Shown: in pieces, positions 1,807 through 58,934 of the stretch
Numbering within the stretch: the stretch's first letter is position 1
How the letters are laid out: each line of letters starts with the position of its first letter
Origin: Mustelus asterias
Lineage: Eukaryota
Reading direction: 5' to 3'
DNA length: 64,000 bases
Assembly: GCF_964213995.1 (NCBI RefSeq)
Contig: NC_135830.1
Coordinates: 19,406,001 to 19,470,000 of the forward strand
Made by a program: the position numbers and the translations under genes
Notes under the pieces: model-generated
Databases searched by the model: none
Seen by the model: only the letters and a program-made list of their open reading frames with translations
What the model was told of the DNA's origin: nothing

Positions 1807-2277
1807 ATGTTCCTGACTCTGGTTATTGTTCTGATCACAGGTCAGTGATTCTGATCACATATTGCAAAGTATGTTGCAAACCTTGTGCTATTTCCCTTTC
1901 CCATCTCTCTGTGACTACTGTCTTCTTCTGCCTCCTAACCCACTGTGTGTCCGCTGTTTATTTCCAGAGATGAGTAACGGAGACTCAGTCTCCCAGTCAG
2001 AACCAGGAGTTGAAGTAGCAGAGGGTGAAGATTCAGCAATACCCTGCAGTTACTCTGCGTCGAGTTCAGCTGTACAACATGACCTGTTCTGGGATCGCCA
2101 GTATCCACACCGAGCTCCTCAGTATCTGCTCAAAGCCAATTGTTTTGGGTTTACCGATGCGGCTCCCGGCTTTGAACACTTCAGCGGGAATCTCAACCAA
2201 ATACAAAGCACTTTTCACTTGTCCATGAAAGACTTGAAGATAAGAGACAGCGCCGTGTATCACTGTGCACTGAGACA
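1807..2277 (+). CDS. TCR alpha/delta-type V segment, family A (open frame, defective RSS heptamer). Leader 1807-1840, V exon 1968-2277
   Basis: Leader MFLTLVIVLIT with GT donor at 1841 and tttccag acceptor. V exon DSVSQ..C..LFWDRQ..DSAVYHCALR. WYRQ is changed to WDRQ. Confidence 0.85.
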
Positions 2278-2316
2278 GACAGTGAATGAGGCTCCCATGG
2301 CCCTCTTACAAAAACT
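2278..2316 (+). other. 23-RSS with mutated heptamer
   Basis: GACAGTG (invariant first C lost) + 23 nt + ACAAAAACT. Confidence 0.85.
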
Positions 2317-2559
2317 GGTACAGGTCCACAATCAAGTGTTAGGTATCAGGAAAAAAGAAGTTTGAAGTAGAATCGATAGCCATTGATTTCAGCTATTCGA
2401 CCAGAGACAGTTGTACCTGATAAGAACGTGATAAGAAAGGATGATTTCCGAGAGCCGCTTGTCCCTCTGGAATACAAGAGGGGAACAATGCTATTGTACC
2501 CGTACCCGCTGCAGTAAACATGCAAACGTGGTGAGGCAGCTCCCTCTCGTGGCGATCGG

Positions 2560-3300
2560 ATTTGATTTGATTTATTATTATCACATGTATTAGTATATAG
2601 TGAAAAGTATTTTTTCATACGCGCGATATAGACAAAGCACACCGTTCATAGAGAGGGAAACGAGAGTGTAGAGTGTGGTGTTACAGTCATAGCTAGAGTG
2701 TAGAGAAAGATCAACTTAATGCAAGGGAGGTCCATTCAACATTCTGACGGCAGCAGGGAAGAAGCTGTTCTTGAGTGAGTTGGTGCGTGACCTCAGACTT
2801 TTGTATCTTTATCCCGACGGAGCAAGGTGGAAGAGAGAATGCTTGATTATGCTGGCTGCTTTTCAGAGGCACCGGGAAGTGTTGACAGAGTCAATGGATG
2901 GGAAGCTGAATTGCGTGATGGATTGGGCTACATTCATAGAAATCATAGAAACCCTACAGTGCAGGAGGAGGCCATTCGGCCCATCGAGTCTGCACCGACC
3001 ACAATCCCACCCAGGCCCGACCCCCACATATTTACCTGCTAATCCCTCTTAACCTACGCATCTCAGGACTCTAAGGGGCAATTTTAACCTGGCCAATCAA
3101 CCTAACCCGCACATCTTTGGACTGTGGGAGGAAACCGGAGCACCCGGAGGAAACCCACGCAGACACGAGGAGAATGTGCAAACTCCACACAGACAGTGAC
3201 CCGAGCCGGGAATCGAACCCGGGACCCTGGAGCTGTGAAGCAGCAGTGCTAACCACTGTGCTACCGTGCCGTAACGTTCAAGAACGTTTGTAGTTTGCTG
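2560..3300 (-). mobile_element. Rex/Babar-type 3' end with nested HE1 SINE (2936-3271)
   Basis: (gattt)n tail; RLKNSFFPAA-like relic; SINE head and tail. Confidence 0.75.
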
Positions 3301-3954
3301 CGGCCTGGGGATTTCTAGGGATTCCCTCCCTGTCGGAGGTAAATGGCAATTTCCAGGAAAATCACCAAATTCTCACGTTCCTGAAGACTGTTGTGATACT
3401 ATGATGTCGTATTATTCGTGAACGTATTGTCATTACTGTAACGCACTGAACTTATACATGAGAGATAATTTCACCTTTATTTTAAATCCTGACGATCTTC
3501 GGTTAGTGTAATATCCCAGCAGACCTGGTGAAAGACTGTGGGAGGAAACCGGAGCACCCGGAGGAAACCTACGCAGACACGGTAAGGACGTGCAAACTCC
3601 ACACAGACAGTCACCCAAGGCCGGAATTGAACCCGGGTCCCTGACGATTTGAAGCGGGGAGACCTGTCGAAATTGGATTTTTGACACTCTGAACTTCAAC
3701 CTCATCAAGTAATTCAACCTCATCAGTTGTAGATCCATGAGTCAATTAAGCAACGTCCATATATTTCTACGCAGTAATATATGTTCTATGTTAGTTACTT
3801 TGGAATGCCATCAAACAACAAAAATAATGTCGGATTAATATTAAGTAGCAAACGTGACAAAAACAAAACAATGAGATCGGCTTAAGCAGCGGCAATAATA
3901 AAATCAAAGCAATATTGCCCGTAATAATTTGGCATAATAATATTTCACTAACAT

Positions 3955-6936: not shown

Positions 6937-7110
6937 TAAAAAAAGCTGAAATTATAAAGTAACACACACAAATAACAAATTGTACGAATAATTAGTTATC
7001 TTTCTTCTTCCCAATTGATCAGTGCTACAACAGACGTTGGCAGAAGCCGCTTCCGTCAAGCAAAGAGGCGAGAGTTCCTTTCCGTGGATTCAACTGTTGT
7101 TATCAGTGTA

Positions 7111-7413
7111 ATCTCAGGGAGCAGCAAGTAACTGCAGTGTCTCTCAGTTACAGCCCAGATAACACTTCTTTTTTCTGGTCAAGCTTTTGAGTTGTTATAT
7201 AAAAAAAAGATTTGGCAAAACCTGTTTCATCTCTGAACCGTTCGTGTTTTGATCAGAGTAAACGCTGGCTGTGTTTCTGGTTGTTGCCGGTAGCAGTATA
7301 AATTACAGCTGTCGTTAGTTGCAGTAGTAGAGATAGAGGTTAAAGCCACCGCTTCTCCTTCTGTCTTAACTCCTGAGGGCAGCAGCTGGCGACAGAACCT
7401 TCATGAGTCAGAT
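7111..7413 (-). pseudogene. Decayed TCR V pseudogene, family E copy 1
   Basis: Broken frames give GVKTEGEAVALT..NLYCYRQQPETQP..GL*LRDTAVTCCSLR, then heptamer relic TACACTG (7104-7110). Confidence 0.75.
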
Positions 7414-7559
7414 GTTCGAACATTGAAAGATCCAACAGGCGGGAGTTTAAAATTGAGATTCAAAACGTGTTGAAAGTAAGAGGAAAAGTAAAATGTTTTT
7501 ACTCCTCTAAGATCGTCACCACCACCGTTTTGCAAACAGTAATGGATTGTCCAGATGAA

Positions 7560-12042: not shown

Positions 12043-12431
12043 ATGAATGAAATAATGACTCTCAAATTATTGATTTTAGGTGAGTGTTTTGTGCAGGCAA
12101 TCGTATTTCCATCTTTTTGTTTTGTGTTTCTAATTTTTTTGTTCCCTCTTTTCTCAACAGTTATCAGCGGAGAGGCTGCGATCCACCAACCACAGCTGAT
12201 ACATGCACAAGGGGGACAATCGATTGAAATCCGGTGCAATGCAAGTACTAGCAGCACCGACAGTGCAGATATCTAAGGAATCGCGGTCCGAAATTCACCC
12301 TATCGGCTATTAGCGGCAACGCCACTGACGGGCGGTTCACGCTCTTTATTGGCCCAACAAGAAGTTAGAACACTCTCGGCATCGACAGCACGGCAATGTC
12401 AGACGCTGGAGTGTATCACTGTGTAATGAGG
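12043..12431 (+). pseudogene. TCR V pseudogene, family B. Leader 12043-12079, exon 12161-12431
   Basis: An approximately 10-nt deletion removes IHW and shifts the frame; TAG further on. RSS CACCGTG-23-ACAATATCT at 12432-12470. Confidence 0.9.
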
Positions 12432-13082
12432 CACCGTGAGACAAAGACTGAGCGCCCCAATACAATATCTACTGCAGCTTCCCATCAGGCAATCTCTACA
12501 CATCTACTGCTCTCTCCCAAATTTGGTGACTCAAATAAGGGGTATCGATCCACAGCCGTCGCCCATTCTCTAAGCGAAAGGTTTCTCAGACCGCCCTGAA
12601 TGTGTTGGCTTCTTTAGTTGATGGAGTGCAGATCATATCTTTCTCGAAGGAAAGGATTTTTCAGGCTGTGCTGAAATGTTGAATTATTTCGTGAGGTACA
12701 GTGAAACATCTTCCACTCGTTCGGTAGGAAATGGTTTTACTGGATTCAAGCACCCTGGGCCAGGAAAGTGCATTTTGAGAGGCACAACCCAAAGGGATTC
12801 TGTTCCCCTCACAATCCCTCACAGGGAGAAGAAGAACCCACTGCCTTTTATAGAAGTAACGTTCTGATGCGAACTGCCGGTGAAGAGAGCAGAGAATCAA
12901 TAAACTTACATCTCAGGTGACGAATGTGCATTTACAACCAATCCAAAAGCAGCAACCCACGTAACAGAGACTTTGATTGGATGATTATGTCTCTAATTAT
13001 GCGAACATTCAGTGCACTCACTCAGTGTGTGCTCTTCCTGTCATCTGTGTGCACCGTTTTCTTTTGACAGAAGAATTGGAAG

Positions 13083-14472
13083 ATGTATTATCCGCAAGGA
13101 GTGAATCTATCATTCGTCATTCTGGTCCTGCTAGCATGTAGGCACAGGAGTTGTATGCAATAACTTGCAGTGTGTGTTCTATGTTCCTGTGTTTTATTCT
13201 TTGAAGCGGTCCTACAGATCGATGTCTCTCAGTCTCCAGCTTCTCGGACAGTCACTGGAGGGGATTCGGTGCGGATAAACAGCAGCTATGAGATGTCCAG
13301 CATTTACACCCTGCACTGGTACAGACAGAAATCCGGTCAGCGACTGGAGTGGGTGATAAAGCGAGTCTCTGCTGGCAAGGAGAGAAAGGACCGATTCATA
13401 GAGTCATAGAGGTTTACAGCATGGAAACAGGCCCTTCGGCCCAACTTGTCCATGCCGCCCTTATTTTTTTTAAAAACCCCTAAGCTAATCCCAATTGCCC
13501 GCATTTGGCCCATATCCCTCTATACCCATCGTACCCATGTAACTATCTAAATGCTTTTTAAAAGATAAAATTGTACCCGCCTCTACTACTACCTCTGGCA
13601 GCTTGTTCCAGACACTCACCACCTTCTGTGTGAACAAATTGCCCCTCAGAAAACACTTTTGTATCTCTCCCCTCTCACCTTAAACCTATGCCCTCTAGTT
13701 TTAGACTCCCCTGCCTTTGGGAAAAGATATCGATTATCTACCTTGTCGATGCCCCTCATTATTTTATAGACCTCTATGAGGTCACCCCTCAGCCTCCAAC
13801 GCTCCAGAGAAAAAAGTCCCAGTCTATTCAGCCTCTCCTTATAACTCAATCCATCAAGTCCTGGTAGCATCCTAGCAAATCTTTTCCGCACTCTTTCTAG
13901 TTTAATACAATCCTTTCTATAATAGGGTGACCAGAATTGCACACAGTATTCCAAGTGTGGCCTTACCAATGTCTTGTACAACTTCAACAAGACGTCCCAA
14001 CTTGAAGGGCGGCACGGTAGCACAGTGGTTAGCACTGCTGCTTCACAGCTCCAGGGTCCTGGGTTCGATTCCCGGCTCGGGTCACTGTCTGTGTGGAGTT
14101 TGCACATTCTCCTCGTGTCTGCGTGGGTTTCCTCCGGGGTGCTCCGGTTTCCTCCCCCAGTCCAAAGATGTGCGGGTTGGGTTGATTGGCCAGGTTAAAA
14201 ATTGCCCCTTAGAGTCCTGAGATGCGTAGGTTAGAGGGATTAGTGGGTAAATATGTGGGGGTAGGGCCTGGGTGGGATTGTGGTCGGTGCAGACTCGATG
14301 GGCCGAATGGCCTCCTTCTGCACTGTAGGGTTTCTATGATTTCTATGAACTCCTATATTGAATGTTCTGACCGATTCGAATTGGAACTTTCCACTGCGGA
14401 AAAATGGGGCCAGTTGGTTATTGAAAACACAGAGAGCACGGATACCGCTGTGTATTAAAGTGCGACAGAGTC
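13083..14472 (+). pseudogene. TCR V pseudogene, family C, interrupted by a LINE with nested SINE
   Basis: Leader 13083-13137. 14-nt deletion in FR1, first Cys changed to Ser, insertion 13398-14368, YY changed to Y*. RSS CACACTG-23-ACAATATCT at 14473-14511. Confidence 0.9.
13398..14368 (-). mobile_element. CR1 3' fragment inserted into a V exon, with nested HE1 SINE (14004-14347, plus strand)
   Basis: 9-bp TSD GACCGATTC (13389, 14369); SINE flanked by AACT. Confidence 0.9.
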
Positions 14473-14689
14473 CACACTGAGAGGAAAGATGGCAGTCACG
14501 GTACAATATCTTCCCCCCTGTTTATAGTTACAGTTCTGGAACAGCCTCAGTAGTCTCTCTCAATGAAACACAGGGCTGGAAAGCTGGGTCAGAATGAGAG
14601 CAGCGAACAAAGGCGATGAGCCAGGGCTGCCGTGGGTAATGATATTGCAAGATTTATCTCTGTCACTCCCATTCGATGAAAAGGTTTAT

Positions 14690-17235: not shown

Positions 17236-17249
17236 AAGTCTATCATAAT

Positions 17250-21458: not shown

Positions 21459-21497
21459 AGTTTTTGTACAGGTTCAGGCCAGCTGCCTGTCTCTGTG
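21459..21497 (-). other. 23-RSS
   Basis: CACAGAG + 23 nt + ACAAAAACT. Confidence 0.9.
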
Positions 21498-22606
21498 GGT
21501 CTCAGTGCGCAGTAATACACCCCGGAGTCTCTCAGCACTGTTTCAGACACTTTCAGCGGGACTGTGCTGTTCACAAAATCAAACTCGGCGGAGAAACGGC
21601 CCTCTGAGTTCCCGCTGTATCGATTTCTCTGCAGTATAAACTCCATGGACCCGCTGGGATGCTGACGATACCAGAATATGTCAGGATAGTCGCTGGTTGT
21701 AGCTGTAAAGTTACAGAACAACTGAACATCATCTCCTTCGCTCACTGCGACTGCAGTCGGCGTCTGCCGAACAGAGTCTCCTCCACAATGTCCTGTAAGA
21801 GTCCAGAGTAACATCAATTCAAACGATGACATTCAACTACGTCTTTCTCTCAGAATCGGCTTTTTGCCCTGAGTAACATCCCGATATATAGTTCGGCGCC
21901 ATTAAAATTAAATGTATTTCCCTCGGTAAGGGACTGTAACGCGAAGGTGTTTGGATCGAATAATAAATCATAGAATCCCCTACAGTGCAGGAGGAGGCCA
22001 TTCGGCCCATCCGGTCTGCACCGGACAACAATCCCACGCATGCCCCAGCGCCGTAATCCCACCTATTTAGCCCGCTAGTCCCTCTAACATTTGCATCCCG
22101 AGACACTAAGGGCAATTTAGCATGGCCAATCTACCTAACCTGCACATTTTTGGACTGTGGGAGGAAACTGGAGCACCCAGAGGAAACCCACGCAGACATG
22201 GGGAGAACGTACAAACTCCAGGCAGATATTGACCGAAGCCGGAAATCGAACCCAGGTCCCTGGAGCTGTGAGACAGCAGTGCCTAACCACTGTGCCACGG
22301 TGCCGCCCTTCAAGAACATTTGACAGCACATTTAGTGTCTATCGAGATCAATTCCCCTCCTGTGTTTCCTGCAATTTGAAGGGCAAATTGAAAACTGTCC
22401 ATAGATTTTAAACTACAGTGTTTGTCACAGGGCGTGTGATTACAAATTGCAAAGGGTTAATTTACTAATCTTCGATGAATCCATTGTTACCCATGTGTTA
22501 ATGTCATGTGTGGTAAAGAAGTGACCTGCAGGTCTGTGTAACTTGTGAACTTACCGGTTAACAGAACAGCCGCTGTGAGGAATGAACACAAAATAATAGG
22601 AGACAT
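21498..22606 (-). CDS. TCR alpha/delta-type V segment, family D, apparently functional. Leader 22606-22555, V exon 21792-21498
   Basis: Leader MSPIILCSFLTAAVLLT|gtaag; tcttacag acceptor; DSVRQTP..C..IFWYRQHP..DSGVYYCALRP. SINE in the intron. Confidence 0.9.
21968..22310 (-). mobile_element. HE1-type V-SINE in a V intron
   Basis: tRNA head, central domain, LINE-like tail. Confidence 0.8.
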
Positions 22607-22966
22607 GTTTGCAGGGAGCTCCTGGCACAGTTAATAGCAATGGGCTGAAGCTCAAATTATTTCACTCAAGAGTTGAGGAGGGGAAGAGTAACACCGAGCA
22701 CTCTGCTGATTGGTTCATTGCCGACAGCGTCATCGGTTGACATTCAATCATATTAAAACTTCTTTGTCTTCCATTCAACCAATGATGTCAAACTCCTTGG
22801 CTCTTCAGTTCCTACCCTCGGCGCCGGATGAAAGAAACAACGAGATTTTGTTCATCTTCAACTGGCAGATGGTCCTTTGTTCACTGCTCTCATTCTGACC
22901 CACCTTTCCTGCCCTGTGTTTTTGAGAGAGATCGCTGCAGCTCTTCGGAACTGTAAGCAGGAGGGA

Positions 22967-23005
22967 GGTTTTTGTACAGTGACTGCCGCCTTTCCTCTCA
23001 ATGTG
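22967..23005 (-). other. 23-RSS
   Basis: CACATTG + 23 nt + consensus ACAAAAACC. Confidence 0.9.
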
Positions 23006-23428
23006 GGTTCTATCGCACAGTAATACACAGCGGTATCCGCGCTCTCCGTATTTTCAATAATCAACTGGCCCCATTTTTCCACAGTGGAAAGTTCCAATTT
23101 GAATCGGTCCTTTCTCTCTTTGCCAGCTGAGACTCGCTTTATTATCCACTCCAGTCGCTGACCGGATTTCTGTCTGTACCAATGCAGGCCGTAAATGCTG
23201 GATATCTCAGAGCTGCAGTTTATCCGCACCGAATATGCGCTTGGGACTGTTCGAGAAGCTGGAGACTGGAACACTCCACCCGAGAGGCATCGACCTGGAA
23301 GACCGTACACGTAATGAAACACAGGAGCAAAGAATAAACACTGCGAGTTATTGAATACAATTCCTGTACCTACATGCTAGCAGCGCCAGAATGACGAATG
23401 ATAGATTCACTTCTTGCGGATAATGCAT
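23006..23428 (-). CDS. TCR alpha/delta-type V segment, family C, apparently functional. Leader 23428-23374, V exon 23294-23006
   Basis: MHYPQEVNLSFVILALLA|gtaggt; GVFQSP..INC..LHWYRQ..DTAVYYCAIEP; frame open. Confidence 0.9.
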
Positions 23429-24042
23429 CTTCCAACTCTTTGGTTAAAAGGAAACGTTGCACACAGATCACAGGAAGAGCACATACTGAGTGAACGCACA
23501 GAATTTTCGCATAAGTAGAGACAGAGTCATCTCATCAAAGTCTCTGTCACGTGAGATGCTGCTTTTGGATTGGCTGTAAATGAATATTCGTCCCCTACGA
23601 TGTCAGTTTGTTGATTCTCTGCTTCCTTCACCGGCAGTTCACATCAGATCGTCAGTTATATAAAAGGCAGTAGGTTTTTCTTCTCCCTGTGAGGGGAGGT
23701 GAAGGGAACAGAATCCTTTTGGGTTAGCGCGTCTCAAAATGGACTTTCCTGGCCCTGGGTGCTTGAATCCAGTAAAATCATTTCCTGCCGAACAAGTGGA
23801 ACATGTTTCACTGCTTCTCACAAAATGATTCAACACATTCAGCACAGCCTGAATAATCCTTTCGTTCCAGAATGACATGATCTGCACCGCATCCCTTAAA
23901 TAAGTCAACACATTCAGGACAGTCTGAGAAACCTTTCGCTTAGAGAATGGACGAAGCCTGTGGACCGATACCCCTTATTTGAGTCGCAACATTTGGAAGA
24001 GAGAGGTAGATGTGCATAGATTGTCTGATCGGAAGCTGCAGT

Positions 24043-24081
24043 AGATATTGTATTGGGGCGCTCAGTCTTTGTCTCACAGTG
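24043..24081 (-). other. 23-RSS
   Basis: CACTGTG + 23 nt + ACAATATCT. Confidence 0.9.
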
Positions 24082-24478
24082 CCTCACTGCACAGTGATAC
24101 ACTCCAGCGTCTGACATTGCCGTGCTGTCAATGCCGAGAATGTTATAACTTCTTGTTGGGTCAATGAAGAGCGTGAACCGCCCGTCAGTGGTGTTGCCGC
24201 TAATAGCCGATAGGATGAATTTCGGACCACGATTCCTTCGATGTCTGTACCAATGGATACTGTCGGTGCTGCGGGTACTTGCATTGCACCGGATTTCAAT
24301 CGATTGTCCCTCTTGTGCATGTATCAGCTGTGGTTGGTGGATCACAGCCGCTTCGCCGATAACTGTTGAGAAAAGGGGGAATAGAAATGAAAAATACAAA
24401 ACAAAAAGATGGAACTACGATTGCCCGCACAAAACACTCACCGAAAATCAATAAATTGAAAGTTATTATTTCATTCAT
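24082..24478 (-). CDS. TCR alpha/delta-type V segment, family B, apparently functional. Leader 24478-24442, V exon 24362-24082
   Basis: MNEIITFNLLIF|gtgag; AAVIHQPQ..RCNAS..IHWYRH..DAGVYHCAVR; frame open. Confidence 0.9.
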
Positions 24479-25224
24479 TGCGTTTTCCTGTTTATTGCGC
24501 TCAGTGGATCAGAAATATTGCAGGGAATTGATTCGTTTGGGATGATTCTGATGTGCAGTTGATGATGTTTTCCTCTGCCTGCTATGAAGGCAGGTTTCTC
24601 TTATATATACACCGAGGGTCGGGGAGCATTGAAACGCTGAGGTTCTCGGCTCACTGACACGCCCACTGGTGGTCATGTTTATAATCCGATGAATCAAACA
24701 GTTCTGGTCTCGGAGAACGAGCAGGAACTAATGACGTTGGAGTCAGACATTTGTCCTTCCAGAATATTAGACCTGGACTGATATCCAACCCTGGCAGAGT
24801 GTGGTCAAGGTGTCTGATGAGGAACTGAGTCGGGCAATGGGACAGATTTGGCCTTTAACCGGCATCTAATCGATTTGAAACTCAGTGGAGATACATACTG
24901 TGGGTATATAATCTGTAGAGTGGTCGTACAGACTCGAAATGACACGGTGGCACAGTGGTTAGCACTGCTGCCCCACAGCATCAGGGACCCTGGTTCGATT
25001 CCTGGCTTCGATTCCTGGTCACACCGTCTTCAGAGGCTGCATGTTCTCCTCGTGTCTGCGTGGGTTTCCTCCGGGTGCTCCGGGTTCCCCTCACATTCTG
25101 AAAGGCATCTGGTAAGGTGCATTGACCCAAACAGGCGTCGGTGTGTGGCGACGAGGGGAAATTCACAGGAACTTCATTGCAGTGTTAATGCAAGCCTTTC
25201 TTGTGATTAATAAATAAACTTTAT

Positions 25225-25795
25225 TTGATTTGAATTATTATAGTCACATGTATTAGTATACAGTGACAAGTATTGTTCCTCGCATGTTGTACAGTCAAAG
25301 AATACCGTTCATAGAGAAGAAAAGGAGAGGGTGCAGAATGTAGTGTTGCAGTCAAAGCTAGGGTGTAGAGAAAGATCAAATCAGTGCGAGATAGGTCCAT
25401 TCAAATGTCTGATGGCAGCAGGGAAGAAGCTGTTCTTGAGTCGGTTGGTATGTGACCTCAGACTTTTGTATTTTCTTCCTGATAGAAGAAGGTGGAAGGG
25501 AGTATGTCCAGGGAGCGTAGGGTTCTTAATTATACTGACAGCTATTCCGAGGCAGCGGCCAGTGTAGACAGAGTCAATGGATGGGAGGTTGGTGTGCGTG
25601 ACGGCTGGGCTTCATTCACGACCCTTTGTAGTTTCTTGCGGCCTTGGGCAGAACAGGAGCCATCCCAAGCTGTGATACAACCAGAACGAATGCTTTCTAT
25701 CATGCATCTGTAAAGGTTGGTGAGAGTCATAGTTGACATGCCAAAATTTATTAATCTTCTGAGAAAGTAGAAGCATTGGTGGTCTTTCTTAACTT
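25225..25795 (-). mobile_element. Rex/Babar-type LINE 3' end
   Basis: KK..YFLRRL..FG..LYRC.IES. Confidence 0.75.
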
Positions 25796-27462: not shown

Positions 27463-27772
27463 TTCTCAGGGAGCAGCAATAAACTGCAGTGCCTCTCAGT
27501 TACAGCCCGGAGATCGGTAAAGATTCTTTTTTTCCGGTCAAGCTGTTGAGTTGTCGTTAAAAAAAAGGCTTTGGCCGAACCTGTTTCATCGCTGAATCAC
27601 TCGTCTTTTTGTCAGAATAAACTCTGGCTCTGTTTCGGGATGTTGCCGGTAGCAGTATAAATTATAGCTGGCGTTAGTTGCAGTAGCATAGATATAGTTG
27701 AAAGCCACCGCTTCTCCTTCTGTCTTAACTCCTGAGGACAGCAGCGAGCGACAGAACCTTCATGACTCAGAT
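27463..27772 (-). pseudogene. Decayed TCR V pseudogene, family E copy 2
   Basis: Acceptor ttatacag; GVKTEGEAVAFNYIY..YNLYCYRQHPETEPEFIL..SLPISGL*LRGTAVYCCSLR; heptamer relic TGCAGTG. Confidence 0.8.
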
Positions 27773-33129: not shown

Positions 33130-33228
33130 AGCTGCCGTGAGCAATGTTATAGATGCATTTCAAAGTCACAGCCTTCCGTCTTAACTCCTGAGGACAGCAG
33201 CTGCTGACAGGATCTCCATGACTAAGAT
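33130..33228 (-). pseudogene. FR1-only fragment of a family E-like V
   Basis: SHGDPV..QLLSSGVKTEG..VTLKCIY; homologous to the 5' end of family E. Confidence 0.6.
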
Positions 33229-33889
33229 CGGAAAAAGATGTTTCAATGGTGAAAGATCAAACAGGCGGGAGTTTAAAATTCAGATTCAAAACATGTTGGA
33301 AACTGTAGGATAGTCAAACGTATTTGACCCGCCACAGTCGACATTAGCACCATTTTACAGACAATAATAGATTGTTTAGTGCGATTAGGGAGCGAATGGA
33401 TTTTTACTCGGGAGGAAATACTGAGATATCATAGAGTCATCAGGAATAGCACGAGATAGTCCCATATGTCGCTCCCATTTTAAAGTAAAGTTTAAAGTCT
33501 ATTTATTAGTCACAAGTAAGGCTTACATTAACACTGCAATGAAGTTACTGTGAAATTCCCTTGTCGCCACAGTCCGACACCTGTTCGGGCCAATGCACCC
33601 AACCCAACCTAACCCACCTAACATTGTCTGTAACTGCAAACCATCAACTGCTCTGCCACAGCAAATACACATCACCACTGACAGCACTGCTGACCCAACT
33701 GATGGCAACCAGGAAATGACGATAGCAAACATTCCACTCGCAGAGATCAGGGCACGCGGGTCAAAGGGTAACTGTATGAGGCCCTACAACAGGCTTGTCT
33801 TATGTGGTGTCTGACTGAGATACATTATCACATTTTTCTCACTTTCATGCAGCCTGACTTGTAACACGGGAAATATGACATAATAAATT

Positions 33890-39030: not shown

Positions 39031-40271
39031 GGGGGGAACGAAAGCGAGGGGTAAAAACGGGGGATTAGTCCCTCTTCTCGTGACGTAAGATTTTGGTTAC
39101 TATAGATCAAAATATCCAAAAAATACCGGGACTCGCAAATCTCTTCACTCCCCTATGAGAGTCAGTGTGACAAGTCTTTCTGGCAGAGATCTACAATGCC
39201 CTCTGTCCTCTGTATGAATAATATTTCAAACAGCACAACAGCGGCTACACTGGAAATGAACTTCCATCGTTTGTAAAATACTTTCTGATCTCCTGAATCC
39301 ATGAAGGCCGCTTAATCAGTTAAAATGTTTCTTTCTCTCACGGAGTAATAATTGATTCAAGGGTTAAACTTATGGTCCAGCTGTTTCCATCAGAGGCAGC
39401 ATAGGCTGTTGCTTTGAAATTTCAGTTTCTTTGTTTGAATCCATGTTTTCAATGATTGGCTTGATGCACAATCCCTCCCGGGATTTCCAGGATTCAATCT
39501 CCAGTTTGATGTGAGATTTTTGTTTTCTCTCCACGGGACAATCGGATTCTTTCAGTAAAAACAATCTGAGCGGCTATTGTGTGAACCTGATGGAAACTGA
39601 CCGCCTGTACAGGGAGAGCGGGTGACTGAGGCACCAAGAGGCTGCTTCCATTCTAAACCTCATTTATTAACCTGATCACCTCTATAAAGCTTTACACTAA
39701 TCTATCTGCATGTGTAAATATGAACTATATATTCATTGTCAAAATGGTGCAAATGTCTCAGAATTAACAGTACAAGTGTTAATCTCCAAACACCAGTTGC
39801 CAGGCGAGGTTCTGGTGTTCGCTCTCTCGCCTGTGAAGCAGAAGTTTTCAGAATCCCAGTCTCTCTCCAGAGACTCCAGTCGGAGGATCCATTCAGTGCA
39901 GACCTAGTGCAATGCTGAATTGTGAGAGTAGCGAATTTTGGATGAGATATTAAATCGGGGGCTCCGCCTCAGATGAGGGTTATTGACCGGAAAGACGCTA
40001 TTTCGAAGAAGAGCTGTGGAATTGCTCTCGTCAGTAACTACCCAACAATAAACATCCTAAAACAGATTATCCATTAAAATGTTGTTGTTTGAAGGATCAC
40101 GTGGGGGCAAAATTCTTCTTCAGTCCACTAACACAGTGACAGTGAACACACTATGGGACACCAAGGAAGGCATCATATAAATACACGACTATCATTCACT
40201 CAACTGCCCAACCTATTGAGTGAGGCTCTGACAGTTGTTGTTCAGGTTCAGCTCTGCTCTGTGTCTCTGTG

Positions 40272-40578
40272 GGTCTCAGTGCGCAGTAATTTACCCCTGA
40301 GTCAATCAGCTCTGTTTCAGACACTTTCAACGGGACGGTGATATTCACAAAATCAAACTCGGCAGATAAGCGGTCCCCTGGGAATATCTCTCTGTTCCCG
40401 CTGTATCTATGTCTCTGCAGCAGAAACTCCAGGGACCCGCTGGAATGCTGACGGTACCAGAATAGATGAGGGATGTCGCTGGTTGTAGCTTCAAAGTTAC
40501 AGAACAACTGAACATCATCTCCTTCACTCACGGTGACTGCAGCCGGTGTCTGTGTAACAGAGTCTCCTCCACAATGTC
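40272..40578 (-). pseudogene. TCR V pseudogene, family D (no leader, splice acceptor lost)
   Basis: Open V frame DSVTQTP..LFWYRQ..VNYCALRP, but acceptor CAG is CGG and the intron is cut at about 40640. RSS CACAGAG-23-ACAACAACT at 40271-40233. Confidence 0.85.
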
Positions 40579-41881: not shown

Positions 41882-42278
41882 ATGAATGAAATAATAACTT
41901 TCAATTTATTGATTTTCGGTGAGTGTTTTGAGCAGGCAATCGTCGTTCCATCTTTTTGTTTTGTATTTTTCATTTCCATTCCCCCTTTTCTCAACAGTTA
42001 TTGGCGAAGCGGCTGTGATCCACCAACAACAGCTGATGCATGCACAAGAGGGACAATCGATTGAAATCCGGTGCAATGCAACTACCAGCAGCATGGACAG
42101 TATCCATTGGTACAGACATCTAAGGAATCGTGGTCCGAAATTCATCCTATCGGCTTTTAGCAGCAACACAACTGACGGGCGGTTCACGCTCTTTATTGAC
42201 CCAACAAGAAGTTATAACATTCTCGGCATTGACAGCACGGCAATGTCAGACGCTGGAGTGTATCACTGTGCAGTGAGG
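41882..42278 (+). CDS. TCR alpha/delta-type V segment, family B, apparently functional. Leader 41882-41918, V exon 41998-42278
   Basis: Leader and splice sites intact; C..WYRH..YHCAVR. Confidence 0.9.
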
Positions 42279-42317
42279 CACTGTGAGACAAAGACTGAGC
42301 TCCCCAATACAATATCT
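42279..42317 (+). other. 23-RSS
   Basis: CACTGTG + 23 nt + ACAATATCT. Confidence 0.9.
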
Positions 42318-42927: not shown

Positions 42928-43350
42928 ATGTATTATCTGCAAGAAGTGAATCTATCATTCGTCATTCTGGCGCTGCTAGCATGTAGGTACAGGAATTGTA
43001 TTCAATAACTCGCAGTGTTTATTCTTTGCTCCTGTGTTTCATTATTTGAACGGTCTTACAGGTCGATGCCTCTCGGGCGGAGTGTTCCAGTTTCCAGCTG
43101 CTAGAACAGTCCCGAACGCATATTCGGTGCGGATAAACTGCAGCTATGAGATCTCCAGCATTTACGCCCTGCATTGGTACAGACAGAAATCCGGTCAGCG
43201 ACCGGAGTGGGTGATAAAGCGAGTCTCAGCTGGCAAAGAGAGAAAGGACCGATTCAAATTGGAACTTTCCACTGCGGAAAAATGGGGCCAGTTGATTATT
43301 GAAAATACGGAGAGCGCGGATACCGCTGTGTATTACTGTGCGGTAGAACC
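42928..43350 (+). CDS. TCR alpha/delta-type V segment, family C, apparently functional. Leader 42928-42982, V exon 43062-43350
   Basis: MYYLQEVNLSFVILALLA|gtaggt; INC..WYRQ..YYCAVEP; frame open. Confidence 0.9.
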
Positions 43351-43389
43351 CACATTGAGAGGAAAGGCGGCAGTCACTGTACAAAAACC
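43351..43389 (+). other. 23-RSS
   Basis: CACATTG + 23 nt + ACAAAAACC. Confidence 0.9.
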
Positions 43390-43499: not shown

Positions 43500-43592
43500 A
43501 TGGGTAATGATAGTACTACAGATACATTTTAAAGTCACAGCTTTGCCTTCCGTCTTAACTCCTGAGGACAGCAGCTGTTGACAGGATCTCCA
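43500..43592 (-). pseudogene. FR1-only fragment of a family E-like V
   Basis: GDPV..QQLLSSGVKTEGKAVTLKCICST. Confidence 0.6.
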
Positions 43593-43908
43593 ATGGTGAA
43601 AGATCAAACAGGCGGGAGTTTAAAATTCAGATTCAAAACATGTTGGAAATCGTAGGAAAGTCAAGCGTATTGGACCCGCCAAACACGTCATTACCACCAT
43701 TTTACAAACAAGAACAGATTGTTTCGTGTGATGAGGGAGCGAATGGATTTTTATTAGGGCGGAACTACTGAGGTGTCATAGAGTCATCAGGAATCGCAAG
43801 AGATAGTCCCAAATGTCGCTCCTGTTGACTGTAGCAACAGGCCATTAACCCCTCTGTCGCAGCAAATGCAGATCCCCACCTCCAGCACTGCTGACCTACC
43901 TGATGGCA

Positions 43909-48513: not shown

Positions 48514-48910
48514 ATGAATAAAATAATTGCTCTCAGTTTATTGATTTTAGGTGAGTGTTTTGTGCAGGCAATCGGAGTTCCATCTTTTTATTTTGTGTAT
48601 CACATTTTTGTTCCCCCTTTTCTCAACAGTTATCGGCGGAGAGGCGGCGATTCACCAACCACAGCTGATACATGCACAAGAGGGACAATCGATTGAAATC
48701 CCGTGCAATGCAAGTACCAGCGGCACCGAAAGCATCCATTGGTACAGACATCTAAGGAATCATGGTCCGAAATTCATCCTATCGGCTATTAGCGGCAACG
48801 CCACTGACGGGCGGTTCACGCTCTTTATTGACCCAACAAGAAGTTATAACATTCTCGGCATTGACAGCACGGCAATGTCAGACGCTGGAGTGTATCACTG
48901 TGCAGTGAGG
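48514..48910 (+). CDS. TCR alpha/delta-type V segment, family B, apparently functional. Leader 48514-48550, V exon 48630-48910
   Basis: MNKIIALSLLIL|gtgag; PCNAS..WYRH..YHCAVR; frame open. Confidence 0.9.
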
Positions 48911-48949
48911 CACTGTGAGACAAAGACTGAGCGCCCCAATACAATATCT
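48911..48949 (+). other. 23-RSS
   Basis: CACTGTG + 23 nt + ACAATATCT. Confidence 0.9.
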
Positions 48950-49529: not shown

Positions 49530-49946
49530 ATGTATTATCCGCAAGAAGTGAATCTATTATTCGTCATTCTGGTGCTGCTAACATGTAGGCACTGGAGTTG
49601 TATTCAATAACTCGCAGAGTTTATTCTTTGCTCCTGTGTTTCATTATGGTCTCACAGGTCGATGTCTCTCGGGCGGCGTGTTCCAGTCTCCAGCTTCTCG
49701 GACAGTCCCGAGCAGGAGTTCGGTGCGGATAAATTGCAGCTATGAGATATCCAGCATTTACATCCTGCATTGGTACAGACAGAAATCCGGTCAGCGACTG
49801 GAGTGGGTGATAAAGCGAGTCTCAACTGGCAAAGAGAGAAAGGACTGATTCGAATTGGAACTTCCCACTGCGGAAAAATGGGGCAAATTGGTTATTGAAA
49901 ATACGGAGAGTGGGGATTCCGCTGTTTATTACTGTAAGACAGAATC
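49530..49946 (+). pseudogene. TCR V pseudogene, family C (single nonsense codon)
   Basis: Leader 49530-49584, exon from 49658. CGA changed to TGA at 49846-49848. RSS CACACTG-23-ACAAAAACG at 49947-49985. Confidence 0.9.
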
Positions 49947-50094
49947 CACACTGAGAGGAAAGGCGGCAGTCACTGTACAAAAACGTCCCTCCTGCTTACA
50001 GTTCCAGTACAGATGCAGTGTTCCCTCCCAAAAATACAGGGCAGGAAAGGTGGGTCCGAATGAGAGCAGCGAATAGAGGCAGGGAGCAGGGCTG

Positions 50095-50198
50095 CCAGGG
50101 GTAATGATAGTATTACAAATATATTTTAAAGTCACAGCTTCGCCTTCCGTCTTAATGCCTGAGGACAGCAGCTGCTGACAGGATCTCCATCACTAAGA
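50095..50198 (-). pseudogene. FR1-only fragment of a family E-like V
   Basis: Paralog of 43500-43592. Confidence 0.55.
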
Positions 50199-52853
50199 TC
50201 TGAAATAGATGTTTCAATGGTGAAAGATCAAACAGGCGGGAGTTTAAAATTCAGCTTCAAAACCTGTTGGAAATCGTAGGATAGTCAAACGTTTTTAAGC
50301 CGACAATATCGCCATTACCACCATTTTACAAACAATAATAGATTGTTTCGTGCGATTAGGGAGCGAATGGATTCGGGGGGGAAATGCTGAGTTATCATAG
50401 AGTCATCAGGAATGGCAAGAGATAGGTCCAAATGTCGCTCCCGTTGTCTGTAGTTGCAGACCGTCAACTCCTCTGCCAAAGCAAAAAGAGATCCCCACCT
50501 ACATCACCGCTGACCCAACTGATGGCAACCAGGAAATAGCGATAACAAACTCTCCACTAGCAGACATCAGGGCAGGCGGGTCAAAGGGTAACTGTGTGAT
50601 GCCCTACAACTGGTGCTGCTGTCTGATGTGGTGTCTGACTGAGAAGGGACGGCGAACAAATAGTGAGGGGAAAAGGTGTAGGTAATTGCGGACAATACAG
50701 ATGGAGCAATGAAGAGAGATAAGTGGACAGAGAACACGAGTAAAAGAGAGTCTGTGATAGAAACAAAGGGGCGCAGTGAGAAAAGCAATATCCGAAATTG
50801 AATCAGAAATCCCAGGAGGAGAAATAAAAATAACATAATATAACAAAGCATGTGATAAGAAAGGGTGATTTCCCAGAGCCGCTTGTCCCTCTGGAATATT
50901 AGACCAGCAGTAGAACCACAATGTTATTGTTCCCGTATCCGCTGCAGCAAACACACAAAGTGAGGCAGCTCGCTCTGGTGGCGATCTGAGGTAAATGGCC
51001 ATTTCCAGTAAAATAACCAAATTCTCAACTTCTTGCAGAATGTTGTTGGATGATTATGTCGCATTATTCGTGAACATACTGTTATTACATGTATTGCAAT
51101 GAACGTATGCATGAGAGTTAATTCCATCTTTATTTTAAACCCTGACGATGCTCTTTGTTTAGTGTAATATCCCAGGGGACTTGGTGAAAGACTGTAGGAG
51201 GAAACCGGAGCACCCGGAGGAAACCCACGCAAACACGGGAAGAACGTGCAAACTCCACACAGACTGTCGACCGAGGCCGGAATTGAACCCGGGTCCCTGA
51301 TGCTTTGAAGCGGGGAGACCTGAAGAAATTGGATTTTCGACACTCTGAAATTTCGGAAAAACGGGAGAAATGAGGAATCCAATCTTATCAGTTGTAGATC
51401 TATGAGTCAATTAACGTCCATATATTTATACAGCAATATGTACTCTATTGGTTACTTTGGAATGCCAGCAAACAAGGAAGGGTAATGTCGGAATTATTAC
51501 TAAGTAGTAAACGTGACAAAAGCAAAACAATGAGAAAGCCTTAAGCAGCAGGAATGATAAAATCAAAGCAATAAGGTCCATTGTTAACTGGCATAACAAT
51601 ATTTCAGTAACATCATAGAACAAAGAAAAGTACAGCACAGGAACAGGACCGTCAGCCCCTCCAAGCCCGTGCCGATCATGATGCCCTGACGAAAAATAAA
51701 ACCTTCTGTCCTTACCTGGTCCATATCCCTCTATTCCCTCCCTATTCATGTACCCATCCTGATTTGATTTGATTTGATCCATTATTGTCACATGCATTAA
51801 CATACAGTGAAAAGTATTGTTTCTTGGCGCTTTCCAGACAAAACATACTGTTCATAGAGAAGGAAAGGAGAGAGTGCAGAATGTAGTGTTACAGTCATAG
51901 CTCGGGTGTAAAGAAAGATCAGCTTAATGCAAGGTCCAGATGCCGCTTCAATGTTACTAATGTGCCTTCTTCCACCACCTCCTCTGCCAGCGCGTTCCAG
52001 GAACCCACCACTTGCTGCGTGAAACACTTCCCCACACATCTCCCTTAAACTTACCCACTCTCACCTTGAACCTCTGCCCCCTTGTAAATTGACTCTTCCA
52101 CCCCTGGCAAAAAGCCTCTGACTATCCACCCTGCTATGCCTCTCATGATTTTGTAAACCTCTATCAGGTCTCCCCTCAGCCTGCGTCTTCCCAGTGAAGA
52201 CAATCCTAGTTTATTCAACCTCTCCTCATAGCCAACACCCTCGAGATCAGGCAACCTCCTGGTGAACATTCTTTGCACTCTGTCCAAAGCTTCCACGTCC
52301 TTCTGGTAGTGTGGTGACCAAAACTGCACGCAATACTCCAAATGCGGCCGAACCAAGGTTTTATACAGCTGCAACATGATTTGCCAAATCCATTACTCAG
52401 TGCCCCGGCTGATGAAGGCAAGCATGCCATATGCCGTTTTAATCACTTTGGCCACCTATGCTGCCACTTTGAGGGAACTGTGGACCTGCATGCCCAGATT
52501 CCTCTGTATGTTAATGTTACTCAGGGTTCTGCCATTTACAGTATAATTCGTATCTCAATTTGATCCTCCAGCATGCATCACCTCGAATTAAACTCCATCT
52601 GCCATTTCTGCGCCCAAGTCTCCAATCTATCTATATCCTGTTGCATCCTCTGACAAGCCTCATCACTATCAGCAACTCCGCCAATCTTCATATCATCCAC
52701 AAATTTACTAATCAGGTCACCCACATTTTCCTCCAGATCATTTATAGACACAACAAATAACAGAGACCCCAGCACTGATCCTTGTGGACTAGCTACAAAT
52801 CTTCATTCTGAAAAACACCTTTCCATCGCGACTCTCTGCCTTGTATAATCAAG

Positions 52854-54034: not shown

Positions 54035-54086
54035 CCGGTTAACAGAGCTGCCGCTGTGAGGATTAGAGACAAAGTAACGGGAGACA
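54035..54086 (-). pseudogene. Orphan family D leader exon (V exon deleted)
   Basis: MSPVTLSLILTAAALLT|gtaag with a promoter homologous to 22606-22830; no V exon downstream. Confidence 0.85.
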
Positions 54087-54984
54087 TGTCTGCAGAGAGC
54101 TCCTGGCATAGATAACAGCAATGGGCTGAAGCTCAAATTGTTTCACTCAAGAGTTGAGAAGCGGGTGAGTAACACCCAGCACTCTGCTGATTGGTTCATT
54201 GCCAACAGCGTCATCAATTGACATTCAATTATCTTCAAATATCTTTGTCTTCTAGAACATAGAACATTCCAGCGCAGTACAGGCCCTTTGGCCCTCGATG
54301 TTGCGCCGACCAGTGAAACCAATCTAAAGCCCCTCTAATCTACACTATTCCAATATCATCCATATGTTTATCCAATAACCATTTGAATGCTCTTAATGTT
54401 CTATTCAATCAATTGTATCAAATTCTTTGGATTTTCAATTCCTACCCTCGGCGAGGGGCAAAGAAACATTTTAAACTGAGTACTTTCTGAGGGATAGACA
54501 CAAAGTTAGTCCTTTGACAGAGAAGGAAAACAATAAATGTTGTTCCGATAGGAAAGCCAAAACCCCCCAATTAAAAGAGCTGCTCTCTGACTCTGTTACA
54601 TCCCACAGCCGATACAAGCGGCCACTGCGTCCTCAGAGATTTCGATACAAAATGAATGAATTATATAGTAACGGGGATGGGGTGATTGTTTGATGGATAT
54701 GAATAGAATGGGAGTGAGCAGACAACGCATTGACCCAGCGATCTTCGATTGGTTAGTCATCAGAAATATTCAAGCACACTTATAATAAAAATAACTGTGT
54801 TCACGGTAATTTATTGCTTAACCATCCTAACCATAGACATCCACTTGATATCGATTTCCAAATTTAAAATTAAGTAAATAATCAGGTCATGCATCTTTTG
54901 ACTGCACCTCCCAAACCCACAATCTCTTCCACCAGCTGACGCCTCGGATCATCAGCACCTGTATGTTCCCCTCCAATAAATTTC

Positions 54985-56168: not shown

Positions 56169-57562
56169 GAGGAAACACTCAAACAGTGACCCATTCCGAC
56201 AATCAAACTCCTCCTTCCAACTGCTGGCAAGTGCTTCTAAATTTTCTGAAATGAATTCGGAATAAGTGGACAACTCGGGGTAATTTGCACCAATTTTCTT
56301 TTATTTATTCATAGGGCATGGGCGTCACTGGTTGGCCAGCATTTATTGCCATTCCCTAGATGCCTGAGGGCAGTTGAGAGTCAACCACATTGCTGTGCCT
56401 CTGGAGTCACATGTAAGCCAGAGCAGGTAAGGACGGCACATTCCTTCCTTAAAGGGCATGTCGACACTATATAGTTAAGAAAGCCCAACATTGCCTTGAC
56501 TTTCTCAGGAGACTAAGGAAATTTGGCACATCAGCTGCGACTCTCACCAACTTTTACAGATGCACCATAAAAAGCATTATTTCTGGCTGTATCACAGCTT
56601 GGTGTGGCTCCTGCTCTGCCCAAGACCACAAGGAACTACAAAGGGTCATGAATGAAGCCCAGTCCATCACGCAAATCAGCCTCCCATCCAGCGACTCTGT
56701 CTACACTTGCTGCTGCCTTGGAAAAGCAGCCAGCATAATCAAGGACCCCACGCACCCCGGACATTCTCTCTTCCACCTTCTTCCGTCGGGAAAAAGATAC
56801 AAAAGTCTGAGGTCATGTACCAACTGACTCAAGAACAGCTTCTTCCCTGCTGCCATCAGACCTTTGAATGGACCTACCTTGCATTAAGTTGATCTTTCTC
56901 TACACCCTAGCTATCACTGTAACACTACATTCTTCACTCTCTCCTTTCCTTCTCTATGAGCAGCATTCTTTGTCTGTACAATATGCAAGAAACAATACAT
57001 TTCACTGTACATTAATACATGTGACAATAATAAATCAAATCAAATCAAGTTTATTTATTAGTCACAAGTAGGCTTACATTAACACTGCAATTAAGTTACT
57101 GTGAAATTCCCCTCGTCACCACACACCGGCGCCTGTTCGGGTACACTGAGGGAAAATTTAACATCTCCAATGCGCCTAACCAGAACGTCTTTCAGACTGT
57201 TGGAGGAAACCAGAGCACCCGGAGGAAACCCACGCAGACACAGGGAGAACGTGCAGATTCTGCACAGAGTCTGACCCAAGCCGGGAATCAAGCCAGGATC
57301 CCTGGTGCTGTGAGGCAGCAGTGCTAACAACTGCACCACCGTGAACCAGATGGGGTTTTCCAACAATTGGAAATAGTTTCATGGTCATCAGCAGATTCTT
57401 AATTCCAGATCTCGTTAATTGAATTCAAATTCCACCACCTGCCGTGGCGGGATTCGAACCCAGGACCACAGAACATTGGCTGAGTTTCTGGATTAATAGT
57501 CTGGTGATAATACCATAGGCCATCGCCTCAGAAATGCTGAAATTGTAAATTAATGCAAGCAA

Positions 57563-57911
57563 AGGGTGGCACGGTAGCACAGTGGTTAGCACTGCTGCTT
57601 CACAGCTCCAGGGACCTGGGTTCAATTCCCGGCTTGGGTCACTGTCTGTGTGGAGTTTGCACATTCTCCTCGTGTCTGCGTGGGTTTCCTCTGGGTGCTC
57701 CGGTTTCCTCCCACAGTCCAAAGATGTGCGGGTTAGGTTGATTGGCCATGCTTAAATTGCCCCTTAGTGTCCTGGGATGCTTGGATTAGAGGGATTAGCG
57801 GGTAAAATATGTAGGGATTGGGGATAGGGCCTGGATGGGATTGCGGTTGGTGCAGACTCGATGGGCCGAATGGCCTCTTTCTGTACTGTAGGGTTTCTAC
57901 GATTTCTATGA
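57563..57911 (+). mobile_element. HE1-type V-SINE
   Basis: tRNA head, central domain, LINE-like tail. Confidence 0.85.
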
Positions 57912-58263
57912 AATGACAAATTGCAGGAATAATTATTTATCTTTGTTCTTCACAATTGATTGGTGCTACAACAGACGTTGGCAGGAGCAGCTTCTCTCGG
58001 GCAAAGAGGCGAGAATTCCTTTCCATGGATTTAACTGTTGTTATCACTGGGAGCAGCAAGTAACTGCACAGTCTCTCAGTTACAGCCCAGAGATCGGTAA
58101 CGCTTCTTTTTTCTGGTCAAGCTGTTGAACTGTCGTGAAAAAAAGTCTTTGGCAAAACCTGTTTCAGCACTGAACTGCTCATTTTTATATCAGAATAAAC
58201 TCTGGCTGTATTTCAGGTCATTGCCGGTAGCAATATAAATTATAGCTGTCGTTAGCTGCAGTA

Positions 58264-58630
58264 AGAAGTCTCACAACACCAGGTTAAAGTCCAACAGGTT
58301 TATTTGGTAGCAAATACCATAAGCTTTCAGAGCGCTGCTCCTTCATCAGATGGAGTGGAAATGTGCTCTCAAACAGGGCACAGAGACACAAATTCAACTT
58401 ACAGAATACTGATTAGAATGTGAATCCCTATAGCCAGCCAGGTCTTAATGGTATAGACAATGTGGGTGGAGGGAACATTAAACACAGGTTAAAGAGATGT
58501 GTATTGTCTCCAGACAGAACTGCAAGTGAGATTCTGCAAGCCCAGGAGGCAAGCTGTGGGGGTTTCTGATAATGTGACATAAATCAACATCCCAGTTTAG
58601 GCCGTCCTCATGTGTGCGGAACTTGGCTAT
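58264..58630 (-). mobile_element. Penelope 3' fragment
   Basis: Homologous to 8484-8830; CAGTA at both junctions. Confidence 0.8.
58317..58353 (-). ncRNA. Minimal hammerhead ribozyme motif
   Basis: CCAT-CTGATGA-aGGAGCagcGCTCT-GAAA-GC-TT-ATGG. Confidence 0.7.
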
Positions 58631-58934
58631 CAGTAGCATAGATATAGTTTAAAGCCACCACTTCTCCTTCCGTCTTGACTCCTCAGGACAGCAGCTGCTG
58701 ACAGGATCTCAATGACTCAGATCTGTGTGAGATGCTCCAATGTTGAAAGATCAAACAGGCAGGAGATTAAAATTTAGATTCAAAACATGTTGTAAGTAAG
58801 AGGAAAGATAAAATGGTTTTAATCTACTAATATGCCATTATCACCATTTTGCAAACAATAATGGATTGTTTCATGCGATTATAGAAAGCATATTATTAAA
58901 TGAGAAAGAATGCAGAAACGATTTACTAGGATGG

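What the first reader, a model, noticed from the sequence alone, without database searches (positions are those of the whole stretch)
1807..58722. Shark TCR alpha/delta-type V array: five families, both orientations, all with 23-RSS
Seen: 13 V exons with heptamer-23-nonamer signals (12 with their own leader), three decayed family E copies and one orphan leader; apparently functional segments lie on both strands. Known: a 23-RSS and CALR/CAVR ends are typical of TRAV/TRDV. Inference: one orientation class must rearrange by inversion, and the mix of intact and dead paralogs reflects birth-and-death evolution.
Basis: partly seen in the sequence, partly recalled or inferred. Interest (0 to 1): 0.7.

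Follow-up and report, generated by a model that had tools for sequence, protein, structure and literature searches.

The report
Shark T-cell receptor V-gene island
This is a real but largely ordinary patch of shark T-cell-receptor alpha/delta variable gene pieces, about half of them broken and facing both ways partly because one pair was likely copied upside down; the surprise lies around it, in a genome assembly that holds two alpha and 19 likely delta constant exons rather than one of each.

Summary
Observation confirmed in number and place: 13 V exons, 12 leaders, 1 orphan leader, 3 decayed copies. "All with 23-RSS" is overstated: 7 of 13 are intact genes and only 3 of those have a near-consensus signal. 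They are TCR alpha/delta V segments: family B groups with shark TCR-alpha chain V domains, and 8 of 8 tested match TRAV/TRDV-type references better than TRB, TRG, IgL or VH. The window is part of a J-less island (C71, 19.22-19.47 Mb) about 1 Mb 3' of a J-alpha/C-alpha unit, across one scaffold gap. As assembled, minus-strand V genes would join by inversion; plus-strand ones need a J-C unit further right. The inverted D-C pair is a 94.9% identical copy of a plus-strand pair. Scattered, two-way TRAV/TRDV exons in sharks are published (PMC12227049, Table S1), and this scan noted similar islands elsewhere in this genome. No expression evidence was obtained. Beyond the window, the assembly holds 2 C-alpha and 19 delta-type constant exons (five checked, each with its own J segments). 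I did not find this in the papers I could search; three key shark papers were not held.

The parts
1807..2316 (+). Family A V gene: leader 1807-1840, V exon 1968-2277, open frame, 23-RSS with broken heptamer (GACAGTG); likely unusable
   Evidence: best single-domain PDB hits are TCR alpha chains
7110..7420 (-). Decayed family E V copy (frameshifts, stops, no recognisable RSS); ends approximate
12043..12470 (+). Family D V pseudogene (frameshift and stop), weak 23-RSS
13083..14511 (+). Family C V pseudogene, split by an insertion of about 970 bases (13399-14368), stop at the second Cys, weak 23-RSS
21459..22606 (-). Family B V gene, intact: leader 22606-22555, V exon 21792-21498, 23-RSS 21497-21459 (CACAGAG / ACAAAAACT)
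   Evidence: groups with shark TCR-alpha V domains at 98/99 support
22874..25266 (-). Inverted duplicate of the D-C cassette at 41092-43482, 94.9% identical over 2395 bases, lacking the E stub that follows three + copies
22967..23428 (-). Family C V gene, intact: leader 23428-23374, V exon 23294-23006, 23-RSS (CACATTG / ACAAAAACC)
24043..24478 (-). Family D V gene, intact frame: leader 24478-24442, V exon 24362-24082, 23-RSS with weak nonamer (ACAATATCT)
27460..27770 (-). Decayed family E V copy; ends approximate
   Evidence: best reference: V domain of P0072, E 1.4e-6
31522..31963 (+). Family D V gene, intact frame, weak nonamer
32570..33026 (+). Family C V pseudogene (frameshifts) with near-consensus 23-RSS
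33149..33375 (-). 5' stub of family E behind the C copy
40233..40578 (-). Family B V exon, open frame, no leader, acceptor AG lost; 23-RSS with 3 mismatches
41882..42317 (+). Family D V gene, intact frame, weak nonamer
42928..43389 (+). Family C V gene, intact, near-consensus 23-RSS; the best + strand candidate
43512..43722 (-). 5' stub of family E
48514..48949 (+). Family D V gene, intact frame, weak nonamer
49530..49985 (+). Family C V pseudogene (one in-frame stop), 23-RSS with 2 mismatches
50109..50346 (-). 5' stub of family E
54036..54087 (-). Orphan family B leader exon with intact donor site
58040..58722 (-). Decayed family E copy, split by an insertion of about 370 bases; ends approximate

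Best explanation
The window is part of a J-less island of germline TCR alpha/delta V segments in a shark antigen-receptor complex, built by local duplication, whose intact members would likely be joined by RAG over long range to J-alpha (or D-delta) segments, the minus-strand ones by inversion. Shown: a D-C(-E) unit occurs four times on +, a 94.9% identical D-C copy lies inverted, 6 of 13 V genes are defective, and the nearest J-C unit found is a + strand J-alpha/C-alpha about 1 Mb to the left. Inferred from 12/23 geometry: B21, C23 and D24 (and the minus-strand family F copies left of the window) would join that unit by an inversion of about 1 Mb, as in teleost TRA loci. The + strand copies would put their coding joint on an excised circle with any J-C unit to the left. 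They need a J-C unit to the right, for which the unplaced second TRA unit (C546) or an unplaced delta-type unit are candidates.
For: Identity: best single-domain PDB hits are TCR alpha chains for C, D, A; B with shark TCR-alpha V, 100/99 and 98/99; D with amniote TRAV-type domains, 100/96 and 97/93; 8 of 8 window V domains score higher on TRAV/TRDV-type references than on any TRB, TRG, IgL or VH reference. Context: IgH-type C1 exons on the same scaffold; 38 J motifs with 12-spacer signal candidates at 18.37-18.42 Mb, C-alpha exon at 18.419 Mb and TM exon at 18.432 Mb, all +; that C exon is 53% identical to the great white protein that PMC12227049 Table S1 labels TCRa. No J motif with a signal in 19.326-19.59 Mb. 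Duplication history. D exons are better kept than the spacer behind them (91-96% against 85-94%); dN/dS is 0.44-0.98 in 6 D pairs and 0.57-0.65 in 3 C pairs, with no significance test. Precedent for 3' inverted V genes: catfish and salmon TRA/TRD (PMC8656973, PMC8559430, passages).
Against: No transcript or rearranged sequence was seen, so use of any segment is unshown. A 200-N scaffold gap at C71:19,163,588 lies between C-alpha and the island, so order and orientation may be wrong. Families A and C were not placed stably: C sat beside the long TRG branch (63/98) and A beside a TRB clade (83/84); neither did. For family B the only PDB hits above the cut-off I set were multi-domain antibodies. 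+ strand copies are not more decayed than - strand ones (6 of 16 against 15 of 25 intact, Fisher p 0.21; p 1.0 with family F counted once), which does not fit their being dead ends. D-family nonamers are weak.
Confidence: 0.6

Rival explanations
1. The island really lies 5' of a J-C unit, either through a wrong scaffold join or because the unplaced C546 TRA unit follows distally. It is then an ordinary upstream V field: one class joins by deletion and the other by inversion.
For: Scaffold gap at 19.164 Mb. No telomere array in the last 20 kb sampled (the final 395 bases not seen). 1 of 2 C-alpha and 16 of 19 delta-type C exons are on other contigs. C546 has V genes of both orientations 5' of its J cluster. 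In stingray, IgW and PSMB5 follow C-alpha (Table S1); here a proteasome-subunit gene among Ig C exons is on another contig, C185. + and - copies are similarly intact. This overlaps with the best explanation and differs mainly in which unit is used.
Against: No J cluster or constant exon was found on C71 right of 18.43 Mb by the genome searches; of 19.59-20.43 Mb I read only 60 kb directly. Flipping the island in place would swap the classes but leave it 3' of C-alpha.
Confidence: 0.3
2. The island is an orphon: a V field stranded among zinc-finger genes by segmental duplication, no longer used and decaying.
For: 6 of 13 V genes defective, plus 6 E relics; decayed IgM-like constant exons in the same island; zinc-finger fields on both sides; weak D nonamers; dN/dS near 1 for the youngest D pair (0.98).
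Against: 7 intact genes in the window, and 11 of 12 family F copies just to the left have near-consensus signals. Older D pairs keep the exon better than the spacer. In salmon, distant and oddly oriented TRAV blocks are expressed (PMC8559430).
Confidence: 0.1

Closest known systems
Dispersed TCR alpha/delta V exons of the elasmobranch antigen-receptor complex (PMC12227049; text parts 1-2 of 8, further passages and Table S1 read)
   Same: TRAV/TRDV exons on both strands, spread over megabases among IgH clusters on the chromosome that carries TCR alpha/delta.
   Different: The paper describes TCR alpha/delta as a translocon and lists at most one C-alpha and one C-delta model per species; this assembly shows 2 C-alpha and 19 delta-type C exons. 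The paper does not annotate signals, and the word 'orientation' does not occur in its main text.
Teleost TRA/TRD loci (catfish PMC8656973, salmonids PMC8559430; passages read)
   Same: V genes 3' of C-alpha, joined by inversion. Atlantic salmon also has 29 TRAV in the same orientation as C and 3' of it; these are expressed, and the authors consider an assembly error.
   Different: In teleosts almost all V genes face the J-C unit. Here the two orientations alternate within kilobases, and most V genes on the scaffold lie 5' of this J-C unit.
Nurse shark TCR alpha/delta V families (PMC5931798; passages read)
   Same: Several V families; the paper finds 5 of 7 delta families also used with alpha, so the constant region cannot be read from V sequence alone.
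   Different: I had no nurse shark sequences in hand, so no family-by-family match was made.
NAR-TCR cassettes and IgH-like V segments (TAILV type)
   Same: Present in the same complex.
   Different: No window V groups with the NAR-TCR or VH-like rows; the D-C pairs are two separate genes, each with leader and 23-RSS and no D or J between them.

Membership tests
TCR alpha/delta V segments (TRAV/TRDV) | Split leader, V exon with Cys-Trp-Cys core, ending shortly after the second Cys | tested here: met
   7 of 13 fully intact; the rest are recognisable defective copies
TCR alpha/delta V segments (TRAV/TRDV) | 3' RSS with 23-base spacer | tested here: met
   23-spacer at all 13, of uneven quality; no 12-spacer signal within 3 mismatches
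TCR alpha/delta V segments (TRAV/TRDV) | Closer to TRAV/TRDV than to TRBV, TRGV, IGLV, IGHV | tested here: met
   8 of 8 by BLAST score; B and D by tree; A, C, D by PDB hits
TCR alpha/delta V segments (TRAV/TRDV) | Stable tree placement of families A and C | tested here: inconclusive
   Placement changed; no AU test was run
TCR alpha/delta V segments (TRAV/TRDV) | Linked to J-alpha/C-alpha or D-J-C-delta | tested here: met
   Same scaffold, about 1 Mb away, one gap between
TCR alpha/delta V segments (TRAV/TRDV) | Found rearranged to C-alpha or C-delta in transcripts | not testable with these tools
   No RNA holder listed
NAR-TCR cassette | NAR-type V, D and J followed by a leaderless supporting V-delta | tested here: not met
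   No J motif with a signal in the window; each C copy has its own leader; no grouping with NAR-TCR rows
IgH-like V in the TCR-delta locus (TAILV type) | VH-clade sequence | tested here: not met
   VH-like and mammalian VH rows form a clade without window V genes (98/85, 99/86)
IgL, TRB or TRG V segments | Closest relatives among IgL, TRB or TRG V, with a linked J-C of that locus | tested here: not met
   those loci lie on other contigs (their labels are my own inference from J clusters and constant exons)
TCR-delta constant (for the 19 exons outside the window) | Own J segments and TCR-type TM exon, with D (12/23) or NAR-TCR cassette upstream | tested here: met
   J and TM in 5 of 5 units read (of 19); a 12/23 D in 2, a NAR-TCR cassette in 2, neither detected in the stretch read at 11.0 Mb
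TCR-delta constant (for the 19 exons outside the window) | Orthology to a cDNA-defined shark C-delta | tested here: inconclusive
   Database relatives carry only automatic 'alpha chain-like' or 'uncharacterized' names; delta is my inference

The most novel reading that the evidence does not exclude
In this shark the TCR alpha/delta locus is not one translocon but a multi-cluster system like shark IgH: two J-alpha/C-alpha units and up to 19 J-C(delta) units are interspersed with V islands. Islands such as this one, with V genes facing both ways, would serve J-C units on either side, and family D, unique to this window, would report which unit and which geometry is used.
Probability: 0.45. Interest if true: 0.65.

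Novelty: new member of a known kind. Interest (0 to 1): 0.35.

Why it matters
The V array itself adds an annotated example to a published pattern and matters little. Two things could matter. First, family D occurs only in this window among the scored matches, with one inverted and four forward copies 91-96% alike among the intact ones, so repertoire sequencing could test directly whether V genes 3' of C-alpha and in the same orientation are ever used, a question left open for salmon. Second, if the many constant units are real paralogs, TCR-delta and TCR-alpha can be organised in clusters like shark IgH, which bears on allelic exclusion across many loci and on the cluster-to-translocon history of antigen receptors.

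Tried and rejected
Expression: no RNA holder listed; this is no evidence either way. Contigs of four runs from one study were laid on 22450-24900: they cover it in pieces, showed no splice or V-J joint, and the one record over the left inversion edge has 29 bases on one side, under the tool's 31-base bar; the runs may be the source material, so this is not used. Homolog search with C43 among longer proteins gave nothing; the V-profile search returned teleost and amniote TRAV-type proteins and no shark chain. Pfam PF09291 found no constant exon. The Atlas search for family D gave generic V-set clusters, first a TRAV-named one. NAR-TCR reading of the D-C pairs: rejected (own leaders, no D or J). 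Idea that + strand copies decay faster: not supported (my own intact/defective calls on 41 segments). One search held one reference row in the wrong frame, corrected, where two near-duplicate window rows (C49, D42) and one flank row were left out and one partial row added; E copies and frameshifted V genes were not in either tree. Papers not held and not read: PMC7039070, PMC7909615, PMC3222143. Literature searches showed no listing that reports multiple TCR-delta constant units in a shark; I judged this from titles, abstract starts and the passages named, so absence from print is not shown. The main supplement PDF of PMC12227049 was not read.
Full report
Observation. Six-frame and BLAST scans found 13 V exons of four families plus decayed copies of a fifth. 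In-script splicing shows 7 of 13 intact from leader to a CAC heptamer: B21, C23, D24 on the minus strand and D31, D42, C43, D48 on the plus strand. The other six are defective: A has heptamer GACAGTG, D12 and C33 are frameshifted, C13 is split by an insertion, C49 has a stop, and B40 lacks its leader and acceptor. An orphan B-type leader lies at 54087(-). All 13 have a 23-base spacer, but only B21, C23, C33, C43 and C49 are within 2 mismatches of consensus with a CAC start; 50 shuffles give 0.02 such sites on average. Family D carries nonamer ACAATATCT, which departs from consensus in the A-tract; that this weakens recombination is recalled knowledge, not tested.

Identity. Best single-domain PDB matches for families C, D and A are TCR alpha chains; for B only multi-domain antibodies passed my strict cut-off. 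In two trees of 50 and 48 rows, B groups with zebra shark and great white TCR-alpha V domains (100/99, 98/99) and D with turtle and tree-shrew TRAV-type domains (100/96, 97/93). A and C were unstable and in the second tree sat weakly beside TRB and TRG rows. By BLAST score, 8 of 8 window V domains prefer TRAV/TRDV-type references to TRB, TRG, IgL and VH references. Database proteins 91-99% identical to constant exons of this genome are labelled Mustelus asterias, so the host is likely a houndshark.

How the two orientations arose. A D-C unit recurs at 12-14k, 31-33k, 42-43k and 48-50k on the plus strand, three times followed by an E stub. The minus-strand D24-C23 pair is a 2395-base inverted copy of D42-C43, 94.9% identical, cut at 22874 where the other copies run on; that it is the derived, younger copy is inferred from this. 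B and E lie on the minus strand throughout the window. D exons are 91-96% alike against 85-94% for the spacer, and dN/dS lies between 0.44 and 0.98: mild constraint at most, not tested for significance.

Wider setting. The window is G000:C71:19,406,001-19,470,000 on a 20.43-Mb scaffold. V segments run from 19.219 to 19.473 Mb, with decayed IgM-like constant exons among them and zinc-finger fields on both sides. No J motif with a signal lies in 19.326-19.59 Mb. A J pattern search led to 38 J motifs with 12-spacer signal candidates at 18.37-18.42 Mb, a C-alpha exon at 18.419 Mb and a TM exon at 18.432 Mb, all on +; the C exon matches the great white protein labelled TCRa in PMC12227049 Table S1. 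I read all of 18.24-19.59 Mb and found one N run outside the window, 200 bases at 19,163,588, left of every island V. Family D has no match above 43% identity outside the window among 102 matches (34% for near-full-length ones; 150 of 1112 candidates scored). Family C has 42 matches at 62-71% elsewhere among 150, and family B has dozens.

Mechanism. By the 12/23 rule these V genes can pair with the 12-spacer signal of J-alpha or D-delta. With a + strand J-C unit to the left, a minus-strand V joins by inversion, the rule in catfish and salmon (PMC8656973, PMC8559430; passages). A plus-strand V would leave its coding joint on an excised circle. Salmon has such a block of 29 V genes that are expressed, and the authors consider an assembly error. 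Here + copies are no more decayed than - copies, the scaffold has a gap and shows no telomere array in the part of its end that I read, and other J-C units are on other contigs, so a distal unit is plausible. None of this is shown by transcripts.

Multiple constant units. A second J-alpha/C-alpha unit lies on C546 (C exon 73% identical). A different constant exon has 19 open copies at 81-100% identity, three on C71 at 7.14, 11.04 and 12.27 Mb. The five units I read each have J segments and a TM exon; two have a 12/23 D segment and two follow a NAR-TCR cassette, hence my label delta. Unit DNA is about 93% and 97% identical among the C71 copies and 85-88% to C96 and C119, so at least these are paralogs; some of the other 14 may be haplotype duplicates. 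PMC12227049 (text parts 1-2 of 8, passages, Table S1) and the review PMC6795676 (passages) call shark TCR loci translocons. An unchecked note of this scan reports a delta minicluster in another genome.

Verdict. The finding is a correct description of a known kind of structure: dispersed, two-way TRAV/TRDV exons are listed for three other elasmobranchs, and nurse shark V families are shared by alpha and delta (PMC5931798, passages). Interest 0.35, most of it from the position 3' of C-alpha, the family found only here, and the multiplied constant units.

Noticed in passing
G000 C71:7.10-7.14, 11.02-11.05, 12.25-12.27 Mb (L121-L125, L161-L167); C96, C119 (L168-L173); 14 more places: 19 open copies of a delta-type TCR constant exon; the five read each have their own J segments and TM exon. 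This suggests a cluster-type TCR-delta organisation.
   Followed up: partly
G000 C546 (L129-L134, L159-L160) and C71:18.37-18.43 Mb (L028-L034): Two J-alpha/C-alpha units, C exons 73% identical. The C71 unit has no constant exon or V detected in the 125 kb upstream and sits among zinc-finger genes.
   Followed up: partly
L013-L017 (C71:19.364-19.397 Mb): Tandem array of at least 12 near-identical minus-strand V genes (family F, period about 2.46 kb), 11 with near-consensus 23-RSS, differing mainly around CDR1.
   Followed up: partly
L033-L034 (C71:18.420-18.432 Mb): About 12 kb of short-period tandem repeat inside the C-alpha gene, between the Ig exon and the TM exon.
   Followed up: no
window 14473-14511: The nonamer of the dead C13 copy reads ACAATATCT like family D, not like the other C copies; convergence or a short conversion patch.
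   Followed up: no
L116, L127, L019 (C71:19.25-19.34 Mb): Decayed IgM-like constant and TM exons inside the V island, and a 310-residue open frame that looks like a GPCR at about 19.343 Mb (label by eye).
   Followed up: no
G000 C22:53.06, C24:52.67 and C69:30.53 Mb: Three separate TRB-like J clusters, two with very similar J spacing; possibly duplicated TRB loci.
   Followed up: no
window 46336-48015(-) and many other stretches: CR1-type LINE reverse-transcriptase fragments (559-residue open frame) and tRNA-type SINEs fill most of the space between V genes (labels by eye); such insertions split C13 and E58.
   Followed up: no
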